15,321 nt of DNA from a virus (lineage: Duplodnaviria > Heunggongvirae > Uroviricota > Caudoviricetes): the IMG/VR virus record IMGVR_UViG_2698536443_000012. The stretch is one strand, 5' to 3'. Positions 1,488 through 15,180 of this stretch are shown here, one piece after another. Under the pieces are notes generated by a model. The model made no database searches. It saw only the letters and a program-made list of their open reading frames with translations, and was not told where the DNA came from. The translations under genes and the position numbers were made by a program. How positions within the stretch are numbered: position 1 is the first letter of the stretch; the number at the start of each line of letters is the position of its first letter.

Positions 1488-1545
1488 AAAAAGGGCGGCA
1501 GAGCAGTCACGGAGTAAAACTGATACCGCCAAACGTCACCAGAAA
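1488..1545 (-). ncRNA. dicF: DicF small RNA (ftsZ-targeting antisense sRNA)
   Basis: Reverse complement of 1488-1545 reads TTTCTGGTGACGTTTGGCGGTATCAGTTTTACTCCGTGACTGCTCTGCCGCCCTTTTT, which matches the DicF sequence as I recall it and ends in a GC stem plus U-run. Exact processed ends cannot be set from sequence. Confidence 0.7.
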
Positions 1546-2810: not shown

Positions 2811-3167
2811 TTACTCGAGAGGAAATTGGTTATGAATACAATCAAGTTTTCTTGCCCAGAATGTGGTGGCTAAGTCTTTGACACATCCTTTAAGCCGCAG
2901 GGCTCTGACAGTTTCGCGGGAGCCATCTGCAAAAATTGTGGTCACCTTGTAACTGAAGATGAGTCCTCGCAGTTCGATGACGAAATCGTTGACAATATCT
3001 TCGGTGCACTCACCAGAGACTTTCTGAAGTAAAGGCGCATACCGCTTAGTTACCGCTCTGATAACTCTTACCTGTCCGGCAATGGCGCTGATATCAATAT
3101 AAAGCGCCATCGCTGTTTCTTTGCTGATCCCTGGACGCCTTCCATTCTGATGTTTGACTTCGCCCAC
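2811..3167 (-). CDS. Hypothetical protein (118 aa), first ORF of the leftward DicA-controlled operon
   Basis: GTG start at 3167 with GAGGA RBS about 7 nt upstream. About 75 nt downstream of a minus-strand promoter-like TTGACC-17-CTAAAT. No recognisable domain; could instead be two smaller genes (ydfA/ydfB-like). Confidence 0.4.
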   Translation of the reverse strand: MGEVKHQNGRRPGISKETAMALYIDISAIAGQVRVIRAVTKRYAPLLQKVSGECTEDIVNDFVIELRGLIFSYKVTTIFADGSRETVRALRLKGCVKDLATTFWARKLDCIHNQFPLE

Positions 3168-6087: not shown

Positions 6088-6120
6088 GTTGAGAAGTGAT
6101 TTTTTACCGGGAGGAAATTT

Positions 6121-6855
6121 ATGGAGACTGTTTTTGACGCACTGAAAGCGATGGGAAAAGCCACGTCGGTAGAGCTGGCTGCGCGACTTGATATCAGTCG
6201 TGAAGAAGTACTGAACGAGCTGTGGGAACTGAAAAAGGCTGGCTTCGTTGATAAAAGCGTATACACCTGGCGTGTGGCTGATAACAACGTTCAGCAGGAA
6301 CAGCCAGCGCCAGAAGAAACCACCACGGCAACAGAAGCGAAAATCTCAGAGTGCGATTTAACCGCGACGATTGAACAACGCGGACCACAAACGGCGGATG
6401 AACTGGCTACGCTGTTCGGTACAACATCCCGCAAAGTTGCTTCAACGCTGGCAATGGCAATCAGCAAAGGTCGTCTGATTCGCGTAAACCAGAACGGTAA
6501 AATTCGTTACTGCATACCAGGTGATAATTTACCAGCAGAGCCGAAAGTTGAATCGGTAGCGGAAACCGATGGTAAAGCCTTTCCTCAGCCAGCCGGTGTT
6601 GCGTTACCGGTACAGAAAGATGCAACACAGGAAGATATTAAAACAGAAACTGTGGCGGACATTGTGCAGTCGCTGCCATCGTTTACTGCAACGCGAGAAG
6701 ATGATTTGATTTTGCCATCGCTGCATATGGCAAATCGCGAACTGCGTAGGGCGAAGAATCATGTCCAGAAGTGGGAGCGAGTCTGCGCCGCGCTGCGGGA
6801 GCTGAACAAGCACCGGGATATGGTTGCCGGGATTTGTCGGAAGTCCGGGCAATGA
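6121..6855 (+). CDS. Hypothetical phage protein (244 aa), N-terminal winged-helix-like region
   Basis: Strong RBS GGGAGGAA 6 nt upstream of the ATG. N-terminus [38 protein letters not shown] looks like a winged-helix fold. No confident family assignment. Confidence 0.55.
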
Positions 6856-7522
6856 GCGGATGGTGCAGGCCTGAAATCATGATACTAACAATGAAGGTAA
6901 AATGCATCGGCAGTCTGATTGGTCGTAGTGAGGCGGCGGTCAGGATGAAAGCCCAGGTTAAGGGAATAAGCCTGATTCTGCGGGGTGATTTTCACCAGTC
7001 AACAAAATATCCGTAGCGCGATAACGGTCAAAAATTATGGCGCTGACACTTTTGTGCCACTGGAGATGACTGTACCTAAGTTCAGGGGAGAAGAACACGT
7101 CCGGTGGGATGGTCGGGCCAGATTTAAAGGGCAGGTCATGGCTCCAGCCTGTACGCTGGCAATGGAGGCTGCCTGGCGGGAAATTGATATGGGAACCACG
7201 CCACTCAGGGATTTACTGCCGGTCCAGAGAATAAATTCCTGTTACGGTTACACCACTGTGATCTTGCAAGTGCAGGAAAGTAGGTCTACACGGTAACGCG
7301 AGTGCGTGTAACTTTTGATGTCATTCCCGTAGAAACACCGGACAAATTTTCGCTGACAGGTCATGCAGAAGGTATAAATCTGCAGATTATGGACAATTAC
7401 GGATATCCGGCAAGAGCCGGAAAAAGCATGCCGCCTCTAATTCTCAGTGGAAGATGGACTTGATTATACTCATTGCATTGTCAGAAATAGTTATCCATTA
7501 AAGGCTGGCTATTCCAAACAGG

Positions 7523-7550
7523 ATGTTGATTACAAAAATGTAATCAACAT
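7523..7550. promoter_or_regulatory. Perfect 12-4-12 palindrome upstream of the binding-protein moron
   Basis: ATGTTGATTACA-AAAA-TGTAATCAACAT in an AT-rich intergenic region about 165 bp upstream of the ATG at 7715. A TATAAT hexamer lies at 7577-7582. Confidence 0.4.
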
Positions 7551-7714: not shown

Positions 7715-8473
7715 ATGAGGAACATAATGGCAGGTTTTTTAATATTCCTGTCTTCTGCTGCTTATGCTGATATCAATCTGTATGGTCCTGGTGGCCCGCA
7801 TACAGCCTTGCTTGATGCAGCCAAACTTTATGCCGAAAAAACAGGTATTATAGTGAACGTTCATTACGGCCCACAGAACAAATGGAATGAAGATGCCAAA
7901 AAAAATGCAGATATCTTGTTTGGCGCATCAGAACAATCTGCTCTGGCTATCATTCGGGACCATAAAGACAGCTTCAGTGAAAAAGATATTCAGCCTCTTT
8001 ATCTGCGAAAAAGTATTTTACTGGTAAAGAAAGGTAATCCTAAAAATATCCGGAGTATTGACGACCTGACCAGACCTGGGATTGGCGTAATTGTTAATGA
8101 TGGTGGTGGTACCAGTAATACATCAGGCACTGGCGTCTGGGAAGATATTGCCGGACGTAAAGGGAATATAGAAACTGTCGCCGCAATCCGAAAAAATATT
8201 ATTTTATATGCGCCCAATAGCGGAACTGCACGTAAGGCTCTTGAGAATCAGCCTGGAGCAGATGTCTGGATAACCTGGGCTGACTGGGCAGCCAGTAATC
8301 CAGAAATTGGTGATGTCGTGGAAATAGCGCCAGACTACGTGATATGGCGTGATATGAACATTACAGTACGTCAGGATGCAAATGATGAAACCCGTCGATT
8401 TGCAGAATGGCTACAAACCGATGAAGCGGCGCCTGCATTCAAAAAATATGGCTGGACCAGGAAAGGCACTTGA
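7715..8473 (+). CDS. Secreted/periplasmic solute-binding protein, ModA-like (type 2 periplasmic binding fold), orphan
   Basis: AAGGAG RBS 6 nt upstream. N-terminal signal peptide MRNIMAGFLIFLSSAAYA then DINLY. C-terminal ...RRFAEWLQTDEAAPAFKKYGWT resembles the ModA C-terminus (...FYDYLKGPQAAEIFKRYGFT, from memory). AT-rich gene with no adjacent permease or ATPase genes. Confidence 0.7.
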   Translation: MRNIMAGFLIFLSSAAYADINLYGPGGPHTALLDAAKLYAEKTGIIVNVHYGPQNKWNEDAKKNADILFGASEQSALAIIRDHKDSFSEKDIQPLYLRKSILLVKKGNPKNIRSIDDLTRPGIGVIVNDGGGTSNTSGTGVWEDIAGRKGNIETVAAIRKNIILYAPNSGTARKALENQPGADVWITWADWAASNPEIGDVVEIAPDYVIWRDMNITVRQDANDETRRFAEWLQTDEAAPAFKKYGWTRKGT

Positions 8474-8479
8474 CATCCT

Positions 8480-8505
8480 CGTCCTTCAGGACGTGGATTC
8501 TTTTT
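8480..8505 (+). terminator. Weak terminator-like hairpin after the binding-protein gene
   Basis: CGTCC-TTCA-GGACG stem-loop followed within 6 nt by a T5 run. A second hairpin ATGCCGC-GCCA-GCGGCAT follows at 8510-8527 without a U-tract. Confidence 0.3.
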
Positions 8506-8808
8506 CCGGATGCCGCGCCAGCGGCATGTAGGGGCAGCTCACAAAACGGAAAAAATTGTACGCTAAGCCTCGCCAGGTGAACTGAATTCATTCCGATATG
8601 GGAATTCCCATATCGGGCGAAAACGGTTTGCTGTAACGGCAGAGTTAAGTAGGATTGCTGCGGGTGCTTGAGGCTATCTGCCTCGGGCATGAACACCAAC
8701 GGCAGATAGATAAAAGCCCCACCCGACTATAAATCGAAGTGAGGCCCCTATATGCTCGTCACATATAGATTGCCTCTTACGGACCGAAAGGTCAAGGAGA
8801 AGCAGGCT

Positions 8809-8964
8809 ATGAAGCAGCAAAAGGCGATGTTAATCGCCCTGATCGTCATCTGTTTAACCGTCATAGTGACGGCACTGGTAACGAGGAAAGACCTCTGCGA
8901 GGTACGAATCCGAACCGGCCAGACGGAGGTCGCTGTCTTCACAGCTTACGAACCTGAGGAGTAA
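8809..8964 (+). CDS. hokD: Hok-family membrane toxin (HokD/RelF-like), with in-frame upstream mok extension from 8752
   Basis: 51-aa ORF MKQQKAMLIALIVICLTVIVTALVTRKDLCEVRIRTGQTEVAVFTAYEPEE, the Hok family signature. The in-frame extension MLVTYRLPLTDRKVKEKQA with GAGG RBS fits a mok reading frame. Confidence 0.85.
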   Translation: MKQQKAMLIALIVICLTVIVTALVTRKDLCEVRIRTGQTEVAVFTAYEPEE

Positions 8965-9032
8965 GAGACCAGGCGGGGGAGAAATCCCTCGCCACCTCTG
9001 ATGTGTCAGGCATCCTCAACGCACCCGCACTT

Positions 9033-9060
9033 AACCCGCTTCGGCGGGTTTTTGTTTTTA
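9033..9060 (+). terminator. Rho-independent terminator (hok mRNA 3' end)
   Basis: AACCCGC-TTCG-GCGGGTT stem with UUCG tetraloop followed by TTTTTGTTTTT. Confidence 0.6.
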
Positions 9061-9184
9061 TTTTCAACGCGTTTGAAGTTCCGGACGGCGCCGGAATAGA
9101 ATCAAAAATACTTAAGTAGCGCGCAGGGAGAAGAGGGATGGACCCCGAACAGGGGAGTGCTATTTATCTGGAAGGATTCTGTTG

Positions 9185-9442
9185 ATGAGAATCGAAGAAT
9201 TACGTGAAATTTTTAGTGAAGATGGCCTCTATACTGTGCGCGTTGAGAAGGGCGCTATTGTCAGCCACTGCCGTATTAAATGTTTACAGTCTCAACAAAG
9301 GAAGAGTGGAGCTGCGTTAATTCATTTTGTGGATGGGCTTGTGACGGATGGTTTTATTTTGCGTGCAAATGAATTTGTCACATCGTTGCCGTCTCTGAAA
9401 GAAGCTGGGATTAAGGCTGGTTTTTCTGCTTTTGAAGATTAG
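9185..9442 (+). CDS. Small prophage protein, Rem-like by position (85 aa)
   Basis: ATG at 9185 (the track's TTG at 9182 is an alternative) with GGAAGGA upstream. Lies between hok and the DUF968 gene as rem does in Qin. Function unknown. Confidence 0.5.
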   Translation: MRIEELREIFSEDGLYTVRVEKGAIVSHCRIKCLQSQQRKSGAALIHFVDGLVTDGFILRANEFVTSLPSLKEAGIKAGFSAFED

Positions 9443-12094: not shown

Positions 12095-12170
12095 GGCCCT
12101 TTAGCTCAGTGGTGAGAGCGAGCGACTCATAATCGCCAGGTCGCTGGTTCAAATCCAGCAAGGGCCACCA
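12095..12170 (+). tRNA. ileZ: tRNA-Ile2 (anticodon CAU, lysidine type), ileZ-like
   Basis: Hand-folded cloverleaf: acceptor GGCCCTT/AAGGGCC, D-arm GCTC...GAGC, anticodon loop CTCATAA, T-loop TTCAAAT, encoded CCA. Close to E. coli ileX as I recall it. Confidence 0.85.
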
Positions 12171-12260: not shown

Positions 12261-12334
12261 GCGTTGTTAGCTCAGCAGGACAGAGCAATTGCCTTCTAAG
12301 CAATCGGTCACTGGTTCGACTCCAGTACAACGCG
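12261..12334 (+). tRNA. tRNA-Arg (anticodon UCU), argO-like
   Basis: Acceptor GCGTTGT/ACAACGC, D-arm GCTC...GAGC, anticodon stem ATTGC/GCAAT with loop CTTCTAA, T-arm ACTGG-TTCGACT-CCAGT. No encoded CCA (CTA follows). Confidence 0.8.
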
Positions 12335-13868: not shown

Positions 13869-13943
13869 GGGTCAGTCGTATAAAGGTCATTACGGAAGGC
13901 TGTTAACCTTCTTATCGTGGTTCGAGTCCACGCTGTCCCGCCA
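13869..13943 (+). tRNA. tRNA-Asn-like (anticodon GUU)
   Basis: Acceptor GGGTCAG/CTGTCCC (one T-T mismatch), anticodon stem GAAGG/CCTTC with loop CTGTTAA, T-arm CGTGG-TTCGAGT-CCACG, encoded CCA. D-arm is weak (3 bp). Confidence 0.55.
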
Positions 13944-13948
13944 AACAT

Positions 13949-14024
13949 GCTGGTTTAGCTCCAATGGTAGAGCAACTGACTTGTAATCATCAGGTCGCCA
14001 GTTCGATTCCGGTAGCCGGCACCA
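13949..14024 (+). tRNA. tRNA-Thr-like (anticodon UGU), thrU-like with weakened anticodon stem
   Basis: Near-identical to E. coli thrU as I recall it, except the 3' anticodon-stem strand (TCATC instead of TCAGT) leaves only 3 canonical base pairs. Anticodon loop CTTGTAA, T-loop TTCGATT, encoded CCA. Confidence 0.55.
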
Positions 14025-14027
14025 TAT

Positions 14028-14102
14028 GCGGGTACCGTATAATGGCTATTACCTCAGCCTTCCAGGCTGATGATGCGGGTTCGATTCCCGCTACCCGCTC
14101 CA
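14028..14102 (+). tRNA. tRNA-Gly (anticodon UCC), glyT-like
   Basis: Sequence GCGGGTACCGTATAATGGCTATTACCTCAGCCTTCCAGGCTGATGATGCGGGTTCGATTCCCGCTACCCGCTCCA differs from E. coli glyT (from memory) at only a few positions. Perfect acceptor stem, encoded CCA. Confidence 0.8.
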
Positions 14103-14866: not shown

Positions 14867-15180
14867 TTTTTTTGTTTGCTGTTTATTAAAAACACTTCTG
14901 CATGGTGAATCCCCCTGTGCGGAGGGGCGATCAGCAACCAGGTATATGGGATAATCGCGGATTCAGGTGCTGATACTGAATTCACCGGGAGGCACCCGGC
15001 ACCATGCTTTGCCACAAAAGTGTTGTTTCTGTTTTTCTCAAACTATCATCATTATCCCTTTATTTCCGGCTGCGCATGGCGTGGCCTTTTTTTTACGACC
15101 AGCCACTGGCAGATGGCCATCCTGTAATTTGATTCCGGTTCCGGCTTTTTAACTCTGTTCCTGTACACGGGAGAAATTCG

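What the first reader, a model, noticed from the sequence alone, without database searches (positions are those of the whole stretch)
8474..9060. Stand-alone mok/hok toxin locus without relBE, with a perfect 24-bp palindrome in its leader
Hok is intact with an in-frame mok extension and a UUCG-tetraloop terminator. The roughly 330-bp leader contains a perfect palindrome CCGATATGGGAA-TTCCCATATCGG (8593-8616). A sok-like antisense RNA would be expected on the minus strand across the mok start (about 8700-8790), but I cannot define its promoter. Whether this copy is regulated, and by what, is open.
Basis: partly seen in the sequence, partly recalled or inferred. Interest (0 to 1): 0.4.

Follow-up and report, generated by a model that had tools for sequence, protein, structure and literature searches.

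The report
Intact prophage hok/sok; palindrome is foreign
This is an ordinary, complete hok/sok toxin-antitoxin locus on an EHEC prophage, but the 24-bp palindrome beside it is not part of the hok RNA: it is a leftover of a phage-defence (BstA-like) gene in which this palindrome is preserved across bacterial phyla by compensating codon changes, which appears undescribed.

Summary
Hok (8809-8964), the in-frame mok start (8752), the UUCG-loop terminator (9033-9050) and the perfect palindrome (8593-8616) are all present.

The hok mRNA starts at about 8660-8662, not 8474. The leader is therefore about 148 nt, and the palindrome lies 45-68 nt upstream of the start, outside the hok cassette.

The locus has every hok/sok hallmark:
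- Rfam RF01794 scores 103.9 bits.
- The 5'/3' fbi pairing is present, with fold z = -7.4.
- A Sok antisense RNA (about 8760 to 8708) has its promoter at the position validated experimentally in the close paralog hokW-sokW.

K-12 hokD is a 5'-truncated copy of this locus.

The palindrome plus 10 nt (8583-8616) is a relic of a KilA-N/BstA-like gene in antisense orientation. In such genes, across many phyla, the palindrome encodes D-M-G-I-P-I-S and is maintained by compensatory codon covariation. Copies also occur outside these genes in other mobile elements.

About 88 of 150 hok loci with the same promoter lack the palindrome, including the functional hokW-sokW unit, so hok does not need it. Its function is unknown. 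A cognate DNA site of BstA-like defence proteins is the most interesting reading still open.

The parts
7715..8473 (+). paa (AcfC-family adhesin Paa), the upstream moron gene. It is context and not part of the hok locus.
   Evidence: ORF; RefSeq annotation of identical sequence.
8475..8503 (+). Terminator-like hairpin of paa (CGTCCTTCAGGACG, then TGGATTCTTTTT).
   Evidence: stem 8480-8493; repeat I6 (8475-8498).
8583..8616 (-). 34-nt relic of a KilA-N/BstA-like gene in antisense orientation relative to hok. It reads ...DMGIPISE*IQ on the minus strand.
   Evidence: blastn aligns window 8583-8616 at 91-94% to the bstA-like genes of Proteus phage vB_BPM-V3 and E. coli phages 666R9, 673R7, 613R10 and PhiR5_2. 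Flank comparison. No further protein similarity in the window.
8593..8616 (.). Perfect 24-bp palindrome CCGATATGGGAA|TTCCCATATCGG, at -68 to -45 relative to the hok transcription start.
   Evidence: DNA hairpin -10.2 kcal/mol, z = -3.9. Exact copies in 17 genomes of many phyla and 52 viral contigs.
8627..8655 (+). hok promoter (inferred): -35 TTTGCT/TTGCTG at 8627-8633 and -10 TAGGAT at 8650-8655.
   Evidence: The -10 position is conserved in relatives (TAGAAT, TACAAT), 6-7 nt before the conserved 5' end. The consensus scan did not list it, consistent with a weak promoter.
8661..9054 (+). hok mRNA, about 393 nt, from the 5' end GGGUGCUUGAGG to the intrinsic terminator.
   Evidence: Fold -165.3 kcal/mol, z = -7.41, with the 5' end paired to the 3' region. 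Consensus fold of 4 relatives has 95 pairs, 17 with compensatory changes. 87.8% identical to the validated hokW-sokW unit.
8662..8811 (+). hok mRNA leader, matched by Rfam RF01794 ('sok'). The model matches the hok-sense strand and ends at the hok AUG.
   Evidence: 103.9 bits against a gathering score of 59, E = 4e-23.
8662..8673 (+). 5' element (tac / fbi partner), GGGUGCUUGAGG.
   Evidence: Pairs with 9014-9026 in the full-length fold ([I9], 9, 71). Pairs with AAGCCCC at 8713-8720 once the 3' end is removed.
8752..8964 (+). mok reading frame (70 codons). It starts 57 nt before hok and is in frame with it.
   Evidence: The in-frame 57-nt spacing is the majority state in this clade, including hokW.
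8809..8964 (+). hok toxin gene (51 aa, MKQQKAMLIALIVICLTVIVTALVTRKDLCEVRIRTGQTEVAVFTAYEPEE), with SD AAGGAG at 8794-8799.
   Evidence: Coding sequence identical to K-12 hokD. 42% identical to R1 Hok. Annotated HokD in RefSeq.
8708..8760 (-). Predicted Sok antisense RNA (about 53 nt): a 9-nt single-stranded 5' tail covering the mok AUG, a long hairpin, and a U-tail.
   Evidence: Fold -21.4 kcal/mol, z = -4.66. Its position matches the sokW probe region.
8767..8795 (-). sok promoter: -35 TTGACC (8795->8790), 17-nt spacer, -10 CAATCT (8772->8767).
   Evidence: Homologous to the sokW -10 (TAACCT), whose mutation abolished antitoxin activity (primers YO-421/422; PMC8621323). Alignments. The window has lost the first T of the -10 through a 1-nt deletion.
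9014..9029 (+). 3' fbi (fold-back inhibition) element, CCUCAACGCACCCGCA.
   Evidence: (I9, 9/9 complementary to 8659-8667). Identical in hokW.
9033..9060 (+). Intrinsic terminator with a UUCG loop and a T-run.

Best explanation
The region 8620-9060 is a complete hok/sok-type type I toxin-antitoxin cassette of the HokD/HokW clade. It lies in the nin region of a lambdoid EHEC prophage (PPompW type).

How it most likely works:
1. A weak promoter (-10 at 8650-8655) makes a roughly 393-nt hok mRNA starting at about 8661.
2. In the full-length RNA the 5' end pairs with the 3' fbi element (9014-9029). This keeps the RNA untranslatable.
3. Slow 3' trimming frees the 5' end. The RNA refolds and exposes the mok start (8752), whose translation is coupled to hok (8809).
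4. A short unstable antisense RNA, Sok (about 8760 to 8708, promoter 8795-8767), pairs across the mok start and blocks or destroys the processed mRNA.
5. When Sok is lost, Hok is made and damages the inner membrane.

What is shown here: the sequence features, the predicted folds and the homology. Steps 2-5 are inferred from plasmid R1 hok/sok (my own knowledge of that system) and from the close paralog hokW-sokW.

The 24-bp palindrome is not part of this RNA. Together with 10 nt to its left (8583-8616) it is a relic of a KilA-N/BstA-like gene lying antisense at the left boundary of the cassette. It is dispensable for hok/sok function.
For: Identity of the locus:
- Rfam RF01794 scores 103.9 bits at 8662-8811.
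- 8659-8667 is perfectly complementary to 9021-9029.
- The full-length fold has z = -7.41 with 5'/3' closure; the 3'-trimmed RNA refolds.
- The consensus fold of 4 relatives has 17 compensated pairs.
- The Sok candidate has a tail-hairpin-U-tail architecture, z = -4.66.
- The sok -10 is homologous to the site whose mutation made hokW-sokW toxic. hokW primer YO-351 is identical to window 8660-8709.
- The locus is 87.8% identical to the functional 607-bp hokW-sokW unit.
- K-12 hokD is identical from about 8790 onward, with relE replacing everything upstream.

The palindrome lies outside the cassette:
- Homology to P1-like plasmid hok loci starts at 8654-8659.
- Homology to hokW starts at 8620.
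- Of 150 hok loci found through the promoter/5'-end pattern, about 88 have no palindrome and a few have decayed copies.

The palindrome comes from a bstA-like gene:
- blastn aligns 8583-8616 to such genes at 91-94%; flank comparison.
- The genes are identified by Pfam KilA-N (E about 1e-25) and PADLOC BstA (E about 1e-16).
Against: - No transcript data were available, so the start sites of hok mRNA and Sok are inferred.
- The sok -10 (CAATCT) matches the consensus at only 2 of 6 positions. The promoter scan listed neither the hok nor the sok promoter.
- The window's Sok hairpin is 21 nt shorter than in hokW.
- Chromosomal hok loci of K-12, E. coli C and ECOR24 failed to mediate post-segregational killing in earlier work, as summarised in the paper read. 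Activity cannot be assumed.
- Read-through from paa across the palindrome cannot be excluded, because the paa terminator has only a 5-bp stem.
- The exact palindrome persists in at least three hok-linked lineages whose flanks have diverged. This could mean it is more than a neutral relic.
Confidence: 0.82

Rival explanations
1. The palindrome is kept by selection as a functional DNA site: the cognate ligand of KilA-N/BstA-like defence proteins, analogous in role to the aba self-immunity element of BstA. The orphan copy in this prophage would then act as a decoy or immunity site. It would let the prophage replicate in cells that express such a protein.
For: - In bstA-like genes the palindrome is preserved by compensatory codon changes in four perfect variants (ATG/CAT, ATC/GAT, ACC/GGT, GCG/CGC). 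89.7% of cells are paired in register against 26-48% when slid, and 0 of 500 shuffles reach the covariation score.
- Exact 24-mers occur in 17 genomes of many phyla. My own arithmetic gives a chance expectation of about 0.002 in 596 Gb.
- Copies of three variants occur outside such genes. Some are in frame in linkers of primase-helicase or polyvalent proteins, once with a second degenerate copy 120 nt away.
- The E. coli orphan matches the variant carried by E. coli bstA-like genes.
- One hok-linked orphan (L162) has a compensated A-T to G-C change.
- For BTP1, BstA is suppressed by a short DNA element in its own locus, and moving that element into phage P22 confers immunity (PMC8585504).
Against: - BTP1's mapped aba is an unrelated 63-bp sequence at the gene start with CCCGCC direct repeats. 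BTP1 bstA has no palindrome at the homologous site.
- No binding or immunity data exist for the palindrome-bearing subfamily.
- hok-linked copies decay in some lineages: a 1-nt deletion, loss of one arm, a centre mutation.
- The window copy still carries 10 nt of gene flank, as expected of a passive remnant.
- Genomes with the orphan (about 580, mostly EHEC) and genomes with the E. coli bstA-like gene (137, mostly other lineages) are largely different sets.
- A few G-T pairs fit an mRNA hairpin as well as they fit a DNA site.
Confidence: 0.2
2. One reading: the hok transcript begins just after paa (about 8474-8500), so the palindrome is a structured element of a roughly 330-nt leader and takes part in hok regulation.
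For: - The paa terminator is weak (5-bp stem), so some read-through RNA may cross the palindrome.
- As RNA, the palindrome would form a stable hairpin.
Against: - The promoter -10 position and the 5' end are conserved at 8650-8662 in all relatives.
- The Rfam model starts at 8662.
- The fbi pairing uses 8659-8673 as the 5' end.
- Most homologous loci, and the functional hokW-sokW fragment, lack the palindrome.
- The sequence left of 8617 is unrelated among lineages.
Confidence: 0.04
3. The locus is a decaying or silent copy. The 1-nt deletion in the sok -10 and the 21-nt deletion in the Sok hairpin have weakened or abolished the antitoxin. The toxin side is therefore also silent, or is controlled in trans by Sok RNAs from the other hok copies in the genome.
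For: - The sok -10 CAATCT matches 2 of 6 consensus positions, against 3-4 of 6 in relatives.
- Sok is shorter than in hokW.
- Genomes that have any match to the query (which includes the hok locus) carry a median of 2 matching places and up to 10. Cross-acting Sok RNAs are therefore conceivable.
- Earlier work found chromosomal hok loci inactive in killing assays (as summarised in the paper read).
Against: - Every structural element is intact and the hok coding sequence is undamaged.
- The same sequence is kept unchanged in hundreds of genomes.
- The -35 is near-consensus (TTGACC), the spacer is 17 nt, and the two most important -10 positions (A2, T6) are retained.
- A locus with a dead antitoxin and a live toxin would be counter-selected.
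Confidence: 0.12
4. The palindrome works as an operator at -45 to -68 of the hok promoter. A dimeric DNA-binding protein, for example a KilA-N protein from a co-resident or incoming phage, binds it and changes hok transcription.
For: - Its position just upstream of the -35 is the same in at least three lineages, though the spacing differs by 18 nt in one of them.
- Perfect dyad symmetry suits a dimeric binder.
Against: - Spacing to the -35 is not conserved (18-nt indel).
- Most hok loci with the same promoter lack the palindrome.
- The same palindrome occurs in many contexts with no hok nearby.
- hok control is known to be post-transcriptional (my own knowledge of the R1 system).
Confidence: 0.05

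Closest known systems
hokW-sokW of Sakai prophage 5 (E. coli O157:H7), PMC8621323
   Same: - Same clade and the same kind of host element (a lambdoid prophage).
- 87.8% identical over the mRNA.
- The first ~53 nt of the mRNA (8659–8711) and the 3' fbi element are identical; the promoter -10 differs at one base (TAGGAT against TAGAAT).
- In-frame mok 57 nt upstream of hok.
- The sok promoter is at the homologous position.
   Different: - The Hok C-terminus differs (...FTAYEPEE against ...FVDYESEK).
- The window's Sok hairpin is 21 nt shorter.
- The sok promoter is TTGACC-17-CAATCT instead of TTGCCT-17-TAACCT.
- The terminators differ.
- hokW follows a small MTWPEA... ORF and has no palindrome, whereas the window locus follows paa and the palindrome relic.
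- hokW-sokW has been tested experimentally; this copy has not.
hokD (relF) of E. coli K-12, Qin prophage, third gene of relBE-hokD
   Same: - Identical hok coding sequence, 3' fbi element and terminator, with two substitutions in the 3' UTR, and similar downstream flank.
- Same position in the prophage, ahead of the DUF968 and Q genes.
   Different: K-12 keeps only the part from the hok Shine-Dalgarno onward (window about 8790 onward). The hok promoter, 5' tac/fbi partner, mok start and sok are replaced by relE. The window carries the full-length form.
hok/sok (parB) of plasmid R1, the founding member
   Same: The overall architecture is shared: a roughly 390-430-nt mRNA with 5'/3' fold-back, mok overlapping hok, an antisense Sok across the mok start, and a matching Rfam model.
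   Different: - Hok is 42% identical.
- The setting is a prophage rather than a plasmid.
- In the R1-type IncFII copy examined here, mok is also in frame. In pO111_2 it is out of frame. The frame is therefore not a family constant.
BstA abortive-infection protein and its aba self-immunity DNA element (phage BTP1), PMC8585504
   Same: - The genes that carry the palindrome have a KilA-N N-terminus and a C-terminal domain that matches the PADLOC BstA model.
- In PhiR5_2 and the Proteus phage they sit immediately after cI, as bstA does.
- Both cases involve a short DNA element inside the defence gene's own locus.
   Different: - aba is 63 bp at the gene start, with direct repeats and no dyad symmetry.
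- The palindrome is 22-24 bp with perfect dyad symmetry, at about codons 55-120 inside the KilA-N coding region.
- BTP1 bstA lacks it.
- No function has been shown for the palindrome.
- The window contains no BstA-like gene at all.

Membership tests
[quoted passage not shown] | Small (about 50 aa) hydrophobic Hok-family toxin ORF. | tested here: met
   51-aa ORF at 8809-8964. Coding sequence identical to K-12 hokD. 42% identity to R1 Hok, E = 7e-16. Annotated HokD.
[quoted passage not shown] | mok reading frame that starts upstream of hok and overlaps it. | tested here: met
   ATG at 8752, 57 nt upstream, in frame. The same arrangement is found in most clade members, including hokW.
[quoted passage not shown] | Conserved hok mRNA leader sequence and structure. 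| tested here: met
   Rfam RF01794: 103.9 bits against a gathering score of 59, full-length match at 8662-8811.
[quoted passage not shown] | Long-range 5'/3' fold-back (fbi) pairing in the full-length mRNA. | tested here: met
   8659-8667 pairs 9/9 with 9021-9029. The MFE closes 8662-8673 onto 9014-9026, z = -7.41. The pairing is kept in three relatives.
[quoted passage not shown] | cis-encoded antisense Sok RNA with its own promoter, complementary to the mok start region. | tested here: inconclusive
   The promoter is homologous to the experimentally validated sokW promoter, and the RNA has the expected architecture. The -10 is a weaker variant, and expression could not be tested.
[quoted passage not shown] | Toxicity of Hok and its neutralisation by Sok. 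| not testable with these tools
   Shown only for the paralog hokW-sokW (PMC8621323).
BstA / aba phage-defence system (considered for the palindrome) | A BstA protein (KilA-N-like N-terminus plus BstA C-terminal domain) encoded at the locus. | tested here: not met
   No such ORF lies around 8593-8616. tblastn similarity is limited to about 10 residues on either side of the palindrome. The annotation of the identical prophage shows none in the region shown, about 7 kb on each side of the locus.
BstA / aba phage-defence system (considered for the palindrome) | Sequence features of the mapped aba element: 63 bp spanning the gene start, with terminal CCCGCC direct repeats. | tested here: not met
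   The aba sequence is unrelated. The palindrome-bearing genes have no such repeats at their 5' ends.
BstA / aba phage-defence system (considered for the palindrome) | The DNA element suppresses the cognate defence protein. | not testable with these tools
   This needs phage infection or induction assays.
KilA-N/BstA-C gene family (source of the relic) | Homology of the window segment to the palindrome region of such genes. | tested here: met
   blastn aligns 8583-8616 at 91-94% to five phage genes. The genes match Pfam PF04383 and PADLOC PDLC02356.

The most novel reading that the evidence does not exclude
The GGAATTCC-centred palindrome is a portable functional DNA site: the cognate recognition or self-immunity element of a widespread KilA-N/BstA-like subfamily of phage-defence proteins. 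It is embedded in their own coding sequence, so that the DNA site and the peptide D-x-G-I-P-x-S co-vary. Orphan copies in other mobile elements would serve as decoys or immunity sites against that defence. These orphans include the one beside hok in this EHEC prophage and those written in frame into linkers of replication proteins.
Probability: 0.2. Interest if true: 0.8.

Novelty: new member of a known kind. Interest (0 to 1): 0.45.

Why it matters
**The hok/sok locus.** The result is housekeeping. It shows that the K-12 'hokD' textbook gene is a truncated copy of a full cassette that survives intact in EHEC prophages. It also gives exact coordinates for the promoter, Sok and the fbi element in this uncharacterized copy.

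**The palindrome.** This is the more valuable by-product. BstA-type defence is known to be switched off by a short DNA element in its own locus, but how the protein and the DNA interact is an open question (Discussion of PMC8585504).

What this work adds is a 22-24-bp dyad inside the KilA-N coding region. It is preserved from cyanobacteria to spirochaetes by compensatory codon changes and is copied into unrelated mobile elements. That makes it a concrete, cheaply testable candidate for such a DNA partner in a large unstudied subfamily.

If the idea is wrong, the palindrome is still an unusually clear case of nucleic-acid-level selection overriding synonymous codon choice.

Tried and rejected
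1. **Is the palindrome the published aba element?** Rejected. aba of BTP1 is a different 63-bp sequence with direct repeats, and BTP1 bstA has no palindrome at the homologous site.
2. **Is there a longer decayed BstA-like pseudogene around the palindrome in the window?** tblastn found nothing beyond about 10 residues on either side. Only 8583-8616 is homologous.
3. **Is the palindrome a hok-family element?** Rejected. 25 of 26 non-window-type palindrome loci have no hok, and most hok loci have no palindrome.
4. **Is the palindrome an intrinsic terminator?** No T/U run follows it on either strand (read from the sequence), and the terminator scan did not list it.
5. **Does any Rfam family match the palindrome region?** None, even at E <= 1.
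6. **Is it in the literature?** A search for the palindrome sequences and for BstA plus palindrome found no paper that holds the sequence or appears to link BstA with a palindrome.
7. **Search for hokW in Sakai 1,252,000-1,270,000.** Not found there. The hokW type was identified instead from the paper's primers in IMG/VR loci.
8. **** aligned the wrong strand of L183 and is void. One search replaces it.
9. **PDB sequence search with the E. coli BstA-like protein** gave only weak Mbp1/APSES matches (E about 0.3), too weak to place the palindrome-encoded peptide on a structure.
10. **Co-occurrence of the orphan and the bstA-like gene in the same E. coli genomes** could not be computed from the capped listings. 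Only the totals are known: about 580 against 137 genomes.
Full report
**1. Where the window comes from.**
The 951 bases around the finding are 100% identical to chromosomes of many non-O157 and O157 EHEC strains. There the genes are annotated paa (AcfC-family adhesin), hokD and a hypothetical protein. The surrounding annotation shows dicB, ydfC, cI/Cro-like genes, replication genes, paa, hokD, DUF968, RusA, Q and tRNAs. This is the early-right/nin region of a lambdoid prophage. The phage collection names this prophage PPompW.

**2. Checking the observation.**
- The palindrome CCGATATGGGAATTCCCATATCGG is at 8593-8616 and is perfect. None of 200 shuffles gave a match, even with 3 mismatches allowed.
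- hok is 8809-8964 (51 aa). An in-frame ATG at 8752 gives a 70-codon mok.
- The terminator at 9033-9050 has a TTCG loop and a T-run.
- No relBE is present.

These parts of the observation are correct.

**3. The leader is not 330 nt.** Five independent lines place the hok mRNA 5' end at about 8660-8662.
- (a) The Rfam model RF01794 matches 8662-8811 end to end at 103.9 bits (gathering score 59), beginning GGGUGCUUGAGG. The model matches the hok-sense strand and ends at the hok AUG.
- (b) 8659-8667 is 9/9 complementary to 9021-9029. The 393-nt RNA 8662-9054 folds at -165.3 kcal/mol (z = -7.41), with its 5' 12 nt closed onto 9014-9026. This is the fold-back-inhibition arrangement that defines hok mRNAs.
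- (c) Homology to hok loci on P1-like plasmids runs from 8654-8659 to 9026 only.
- (d) In an alignment with three relatives, a -10 hexamer (TAGGAT here; TAGAAT and TACAAT elsewhere) sits 6-7 nt before the conserved 5' end.
- (e) Primer YO-351 of the hokW-sokW study is identical to window 8660-8709.

The true leader, from the start to the hok AUG, is about 148 nt. The palindrome lies at -68 to -45. The hairpin at 8475-8498 just after paa is the paa terminator.

**4. The rest of the hok/sok anatomy.**
- When the last 44 nt are removed, the 5' end repairs with AAGCCCC at 8713-8720, as in the first helix of the Rfam model.
- A consensus fold of the window RNA with pSTEC1024_3, pO111_2 and an R1-type IncFII copy has 95 pairs, 17 of them with compensatory changes.
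- On the minus strand the sok promoter can be read by homology: -35 TTGACC (8795->8790), a 17-nt spacer, and -10 CAATCT (8772->8767).
- In the hokW-sokW paper, the 'promoter-less' mutant changes exactly the homologous hexamer (TAACCT). This made the cloned locus toxic. The position is therefore validated in a paralog that is 87.8% identical over the mRNA.
- The predicted Sok (8760->8708) has a 9-nt free 5' tail covering the mok AUG, a long hairpin and a U-tail (z = -4.66).
- Two features are peculiar to this copy. A 1-nt deletion removes the first T of the -10, and a 21-nt deletion shortens the Sok hairpin.
- In-frame mok is not unusual. A 57-nt in-frame spacing is the majority state among 119 clade members, hokW included. 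pO111_2 is out of frame.

**5. Relation to K-12.**
K-12 hokD is identical to the window from about 8790 (the hok Shine-Dalgarno) to beyond 9200. Upstream of that point K-12 has relE instead. The window therefore holds the full-length cassette of which K-12 hokD is a 5'-truncated remnant. 'Without relBE' describes the intact state rather than a loss.

**6. The palindrome is not a hok element.**
I collected hok loci from IMG/VR through their conserved promoter and 5' end, without reference to the palindrome. This gave 150 loci with at least 140 nt of upstream sequence.
- 44 have the exact 24-mer.
- 14 have the 22-nt core with one outer mismatch. They lie behind a different upstream gene but share the left flank GAACTGAATTCATT.
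- A few are decayed: a 1-nt deletion, loss of the left arm, a centre mutation, or a diverged copy.
- About 88 have nothing. In those, homology to the window begins at GGGGATAAAAACGGTTTGCGG, which is the -35 region.

The functional 607-bp hokW-sokW amplicon has no palindrome within it or within 300 nt upstream. Its homology to the window begins at 8620. The palindrome therefore sits just outside the left boundary of the cassette.

**7. What the palindrome is.**
The exact 24-mer occurs in 17 genome contigs from cyanobacteria, Dehalococcoidia, Saccharibacteria, spirochaetes, Bacteroidota, Rhodothermales and alpha-, beta- and gamma-proteobacteria. It also occurs in 52 viral contigs. My own arithmetic gives a chance expectation of about 0.002 in 596 Gb.

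In most of the non-E. coli cases it lies at one fixed place in a 250-320-aa ORF. There it encodes D-M-G-I-P-I-S, about 15 codons before Q-G-T-W-V-H-P. These proteins have a Pfam KilA-N domain (E about 1e-25) and a C-terminal domain that matches the PADLOC BstA model (E about 1e-16). In E. coli phage PhiR5_2 and Proteus phage vB_BPM-V3 the gene follows cI directly, as bstA does in BTP1.

**8. Selection acts on the nucleic acid.**
In 80 family loci retrieved by amino-acid patterns, the codons co-vary so that the dyad is kept:

| Peptide | Codons |
|---|---|
| DMGIPIS | GAT ATG GGA ATT CCC ATA TCG |
| DIGIPIS | GAT ATC GGA ATT CCG ATA TCG |
| DTGIPVS | GAT ACC GGA ATT CCG GTA TCG |
| DAGIPAS | GAT GCG GGA ATT CCC GCA TCG |

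Each of these is a perfect palindrome.

On 26 distinct sequences, 89.7% of cells pair in register against 26-48% when the partner is slid by 1-3 columns. Two pairs are fully compensated (UA 18 / CG 8, and GC 17 / CG 9, with none unpaired). None of 500 shuffles reaches the observed covariation score. A synonymous proline codon tracking the residue three codons upstream has no protein-level explanation.

BTP1 bstA is only distantly related in its N-terminal half and has no palindrome at this site. Its mapped aba element is an unrelated 63-bp sequence at the gene start. The palindrome-bearing genes lack aba-like repeats at their 5' ends. I found no paper that holds the sequence or that appears to connect BstA with a palindrome. 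No Rfam family matches it.

**9. The window copy is a relic.**
No KilA-N/BstA-like ORF surrounds it. blastn nevertheless aligns window 8583-8616 at 91-94% to the bstA-like genes of five phages, on the strand opposite to those genes. The minus-strand reading ...DMGIPISE*IQ... matches ...DMGIPISELIQ.... So 34 nt of such a gene, in antisense orientation, abut the hok cassette. A second hok-linked lineage (L024, L039, L050, L054) has the same palindrome with 18 more nucleotides before the -35 and a different far flank.

**10. Orphan copies elsewhere.**
Three palindrome variants also occur outside bstA-like genes.
- Some are intergenic.
- Some are in frame in Pro/Ala/Glu/Gln-rich linkers of large ORFs. 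By my reading of their sequences, these are primase-helicase-type and giant polyvalent-type proteins; no domain search was run on them.
- In L268 and L278 a second, degenerate copy lies 120 nt downstream in the same linker.

This suggests a DNA site carried wherever the peptide it encodes can be tolerated, but it does not prove function.

**11. Weighing the readings of the palindrome.**
For a passive relic:
- The retained gene flank.
- Decayed copies in some lineages.
- Absence from most hok loci.
- Genomes with the orphan (about 580) and genomes with the E. coli bstA-like gene (137) are largely different sets.

For a selected site:
- The strength and breadth of the covariation in the parent genes.
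- Repeated orphan copies in unrelated mobile elements.
- The match between the E. coli orphan and the variant carried by E. coli bstA-like genes.
- One compensated change in an orphan (L162).

I put about 0.2 on a defence-related DNA-site function for the window copy. I put most of the remaining weight on a relic at a mosaic joint.

**12. Verdict.**
The hok/sok locus is a canonical, complete, already-annotated member of a well-known family. The palindrome is foreign to it. The notable result is incidental: a cross-phylum, covariation-supported intragenic palindrome in KilA-N/BstA-like defence genes, with orphan copies elsewhere, which I could not find described.

Noticed in passing
L077-L159 (IMG/VR and phage loci), L003-L019 (genomes); motif about 15 codons upstream of QGTWVHP in each gene: KilA-N/BstA-like genes across many phyla carry a 22-24-bp GGAATTCC-centred palindrome encoding D-x-G-I-P-x-S. 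It is kept perfect by compensatory codon changes, in four variants. This appears undescribed.
   Followed up: yes
L268 7067-7088 and about +120 nt; L278; L291; L295; L012/L067; L056; L320: Copies of the palindrome variants lie in frame in low-complexity linkers of large ORFs that look like primase-helicase-type and polyvalent-type proteins (judged from sequence; no domain search run). L268 and L278 have a second, degenerate copy (CCGATAAGGGAATTCCCGTTTCGG) 120 nt downstream, which is reminiscent of iterated binding sites.
   Followed up: partly
L002 (E. coli STEC299 chromosome) about 3001-3042: The same ~42-bp module (left flank plus palindrome, 95% identical) occurs in another prophage next to IbrB-like and PAPS-reductase genes, with no hok nearby.
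   Followed up: partly
window 8662-8811 (+): The Rfam family named 'sok antitoxin' (RF01794) matches the hok-mRNA sense strand and ends at the hok AUG. On the antisense strand it scores only 15.2 bits. A hit to this family therefore marks the hok leader, not the strand of Sok.
   Followed up: yes
window 8726 and 8770 regions: Relative to hokW and other relatives, this copy has a 21-nt deletion in the Sok hairpin region. It also has a 1-nt deletion that removes the first T of the sok -10.
   Followed up: partly
window 8973-9054 (+): The hok 3' UTR and terminator give a sub-threshold match to the isrK Hfq-binding RNA family (24.9 bits against a gathering score of 50, E = 0.003). True isrK and C4 elements occur near hok in related prophages (L024, L039, L050).
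   Followed up: no
window 1493-1544 (-); 14871-15043 (+); 12095-12167, 12261-12334, 13869-13940, 13949-14021, 14028-14099 (+): DicF sRNA, STnc100 sRNA and five tRNA genes are present, as is typical of lambdoid EHEC prophages.
   Followed up: no
window 9073-9102 (+): The only sigma-70-like site reported in 8400-9200 (TTGAAG-18-TAGAAT) lies just after the hok terminator, upstream of the 86-aa ORF at 9182-9442.
   Followed up: no
L001 4823-6255 (= window about 6120-7550): In the RefSeq annotation of the identical prophage, the genes just upstream of paa are frameshifted pseudogenes (a DUF1627 protein and a fimbrial protein). The paa segment therefore sits in a decaying patch.
   Followed up: no
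L266-L315 (IMG/VR contigs of 200-400 kb): About two dozen very large viral contigs (jumbo-phage size) share an identical KilA-N ORF with the DIGIPIS variant of the palindrome (SIDIGIPISELIVVIKGG...QGTWMH).
   Followed up: no
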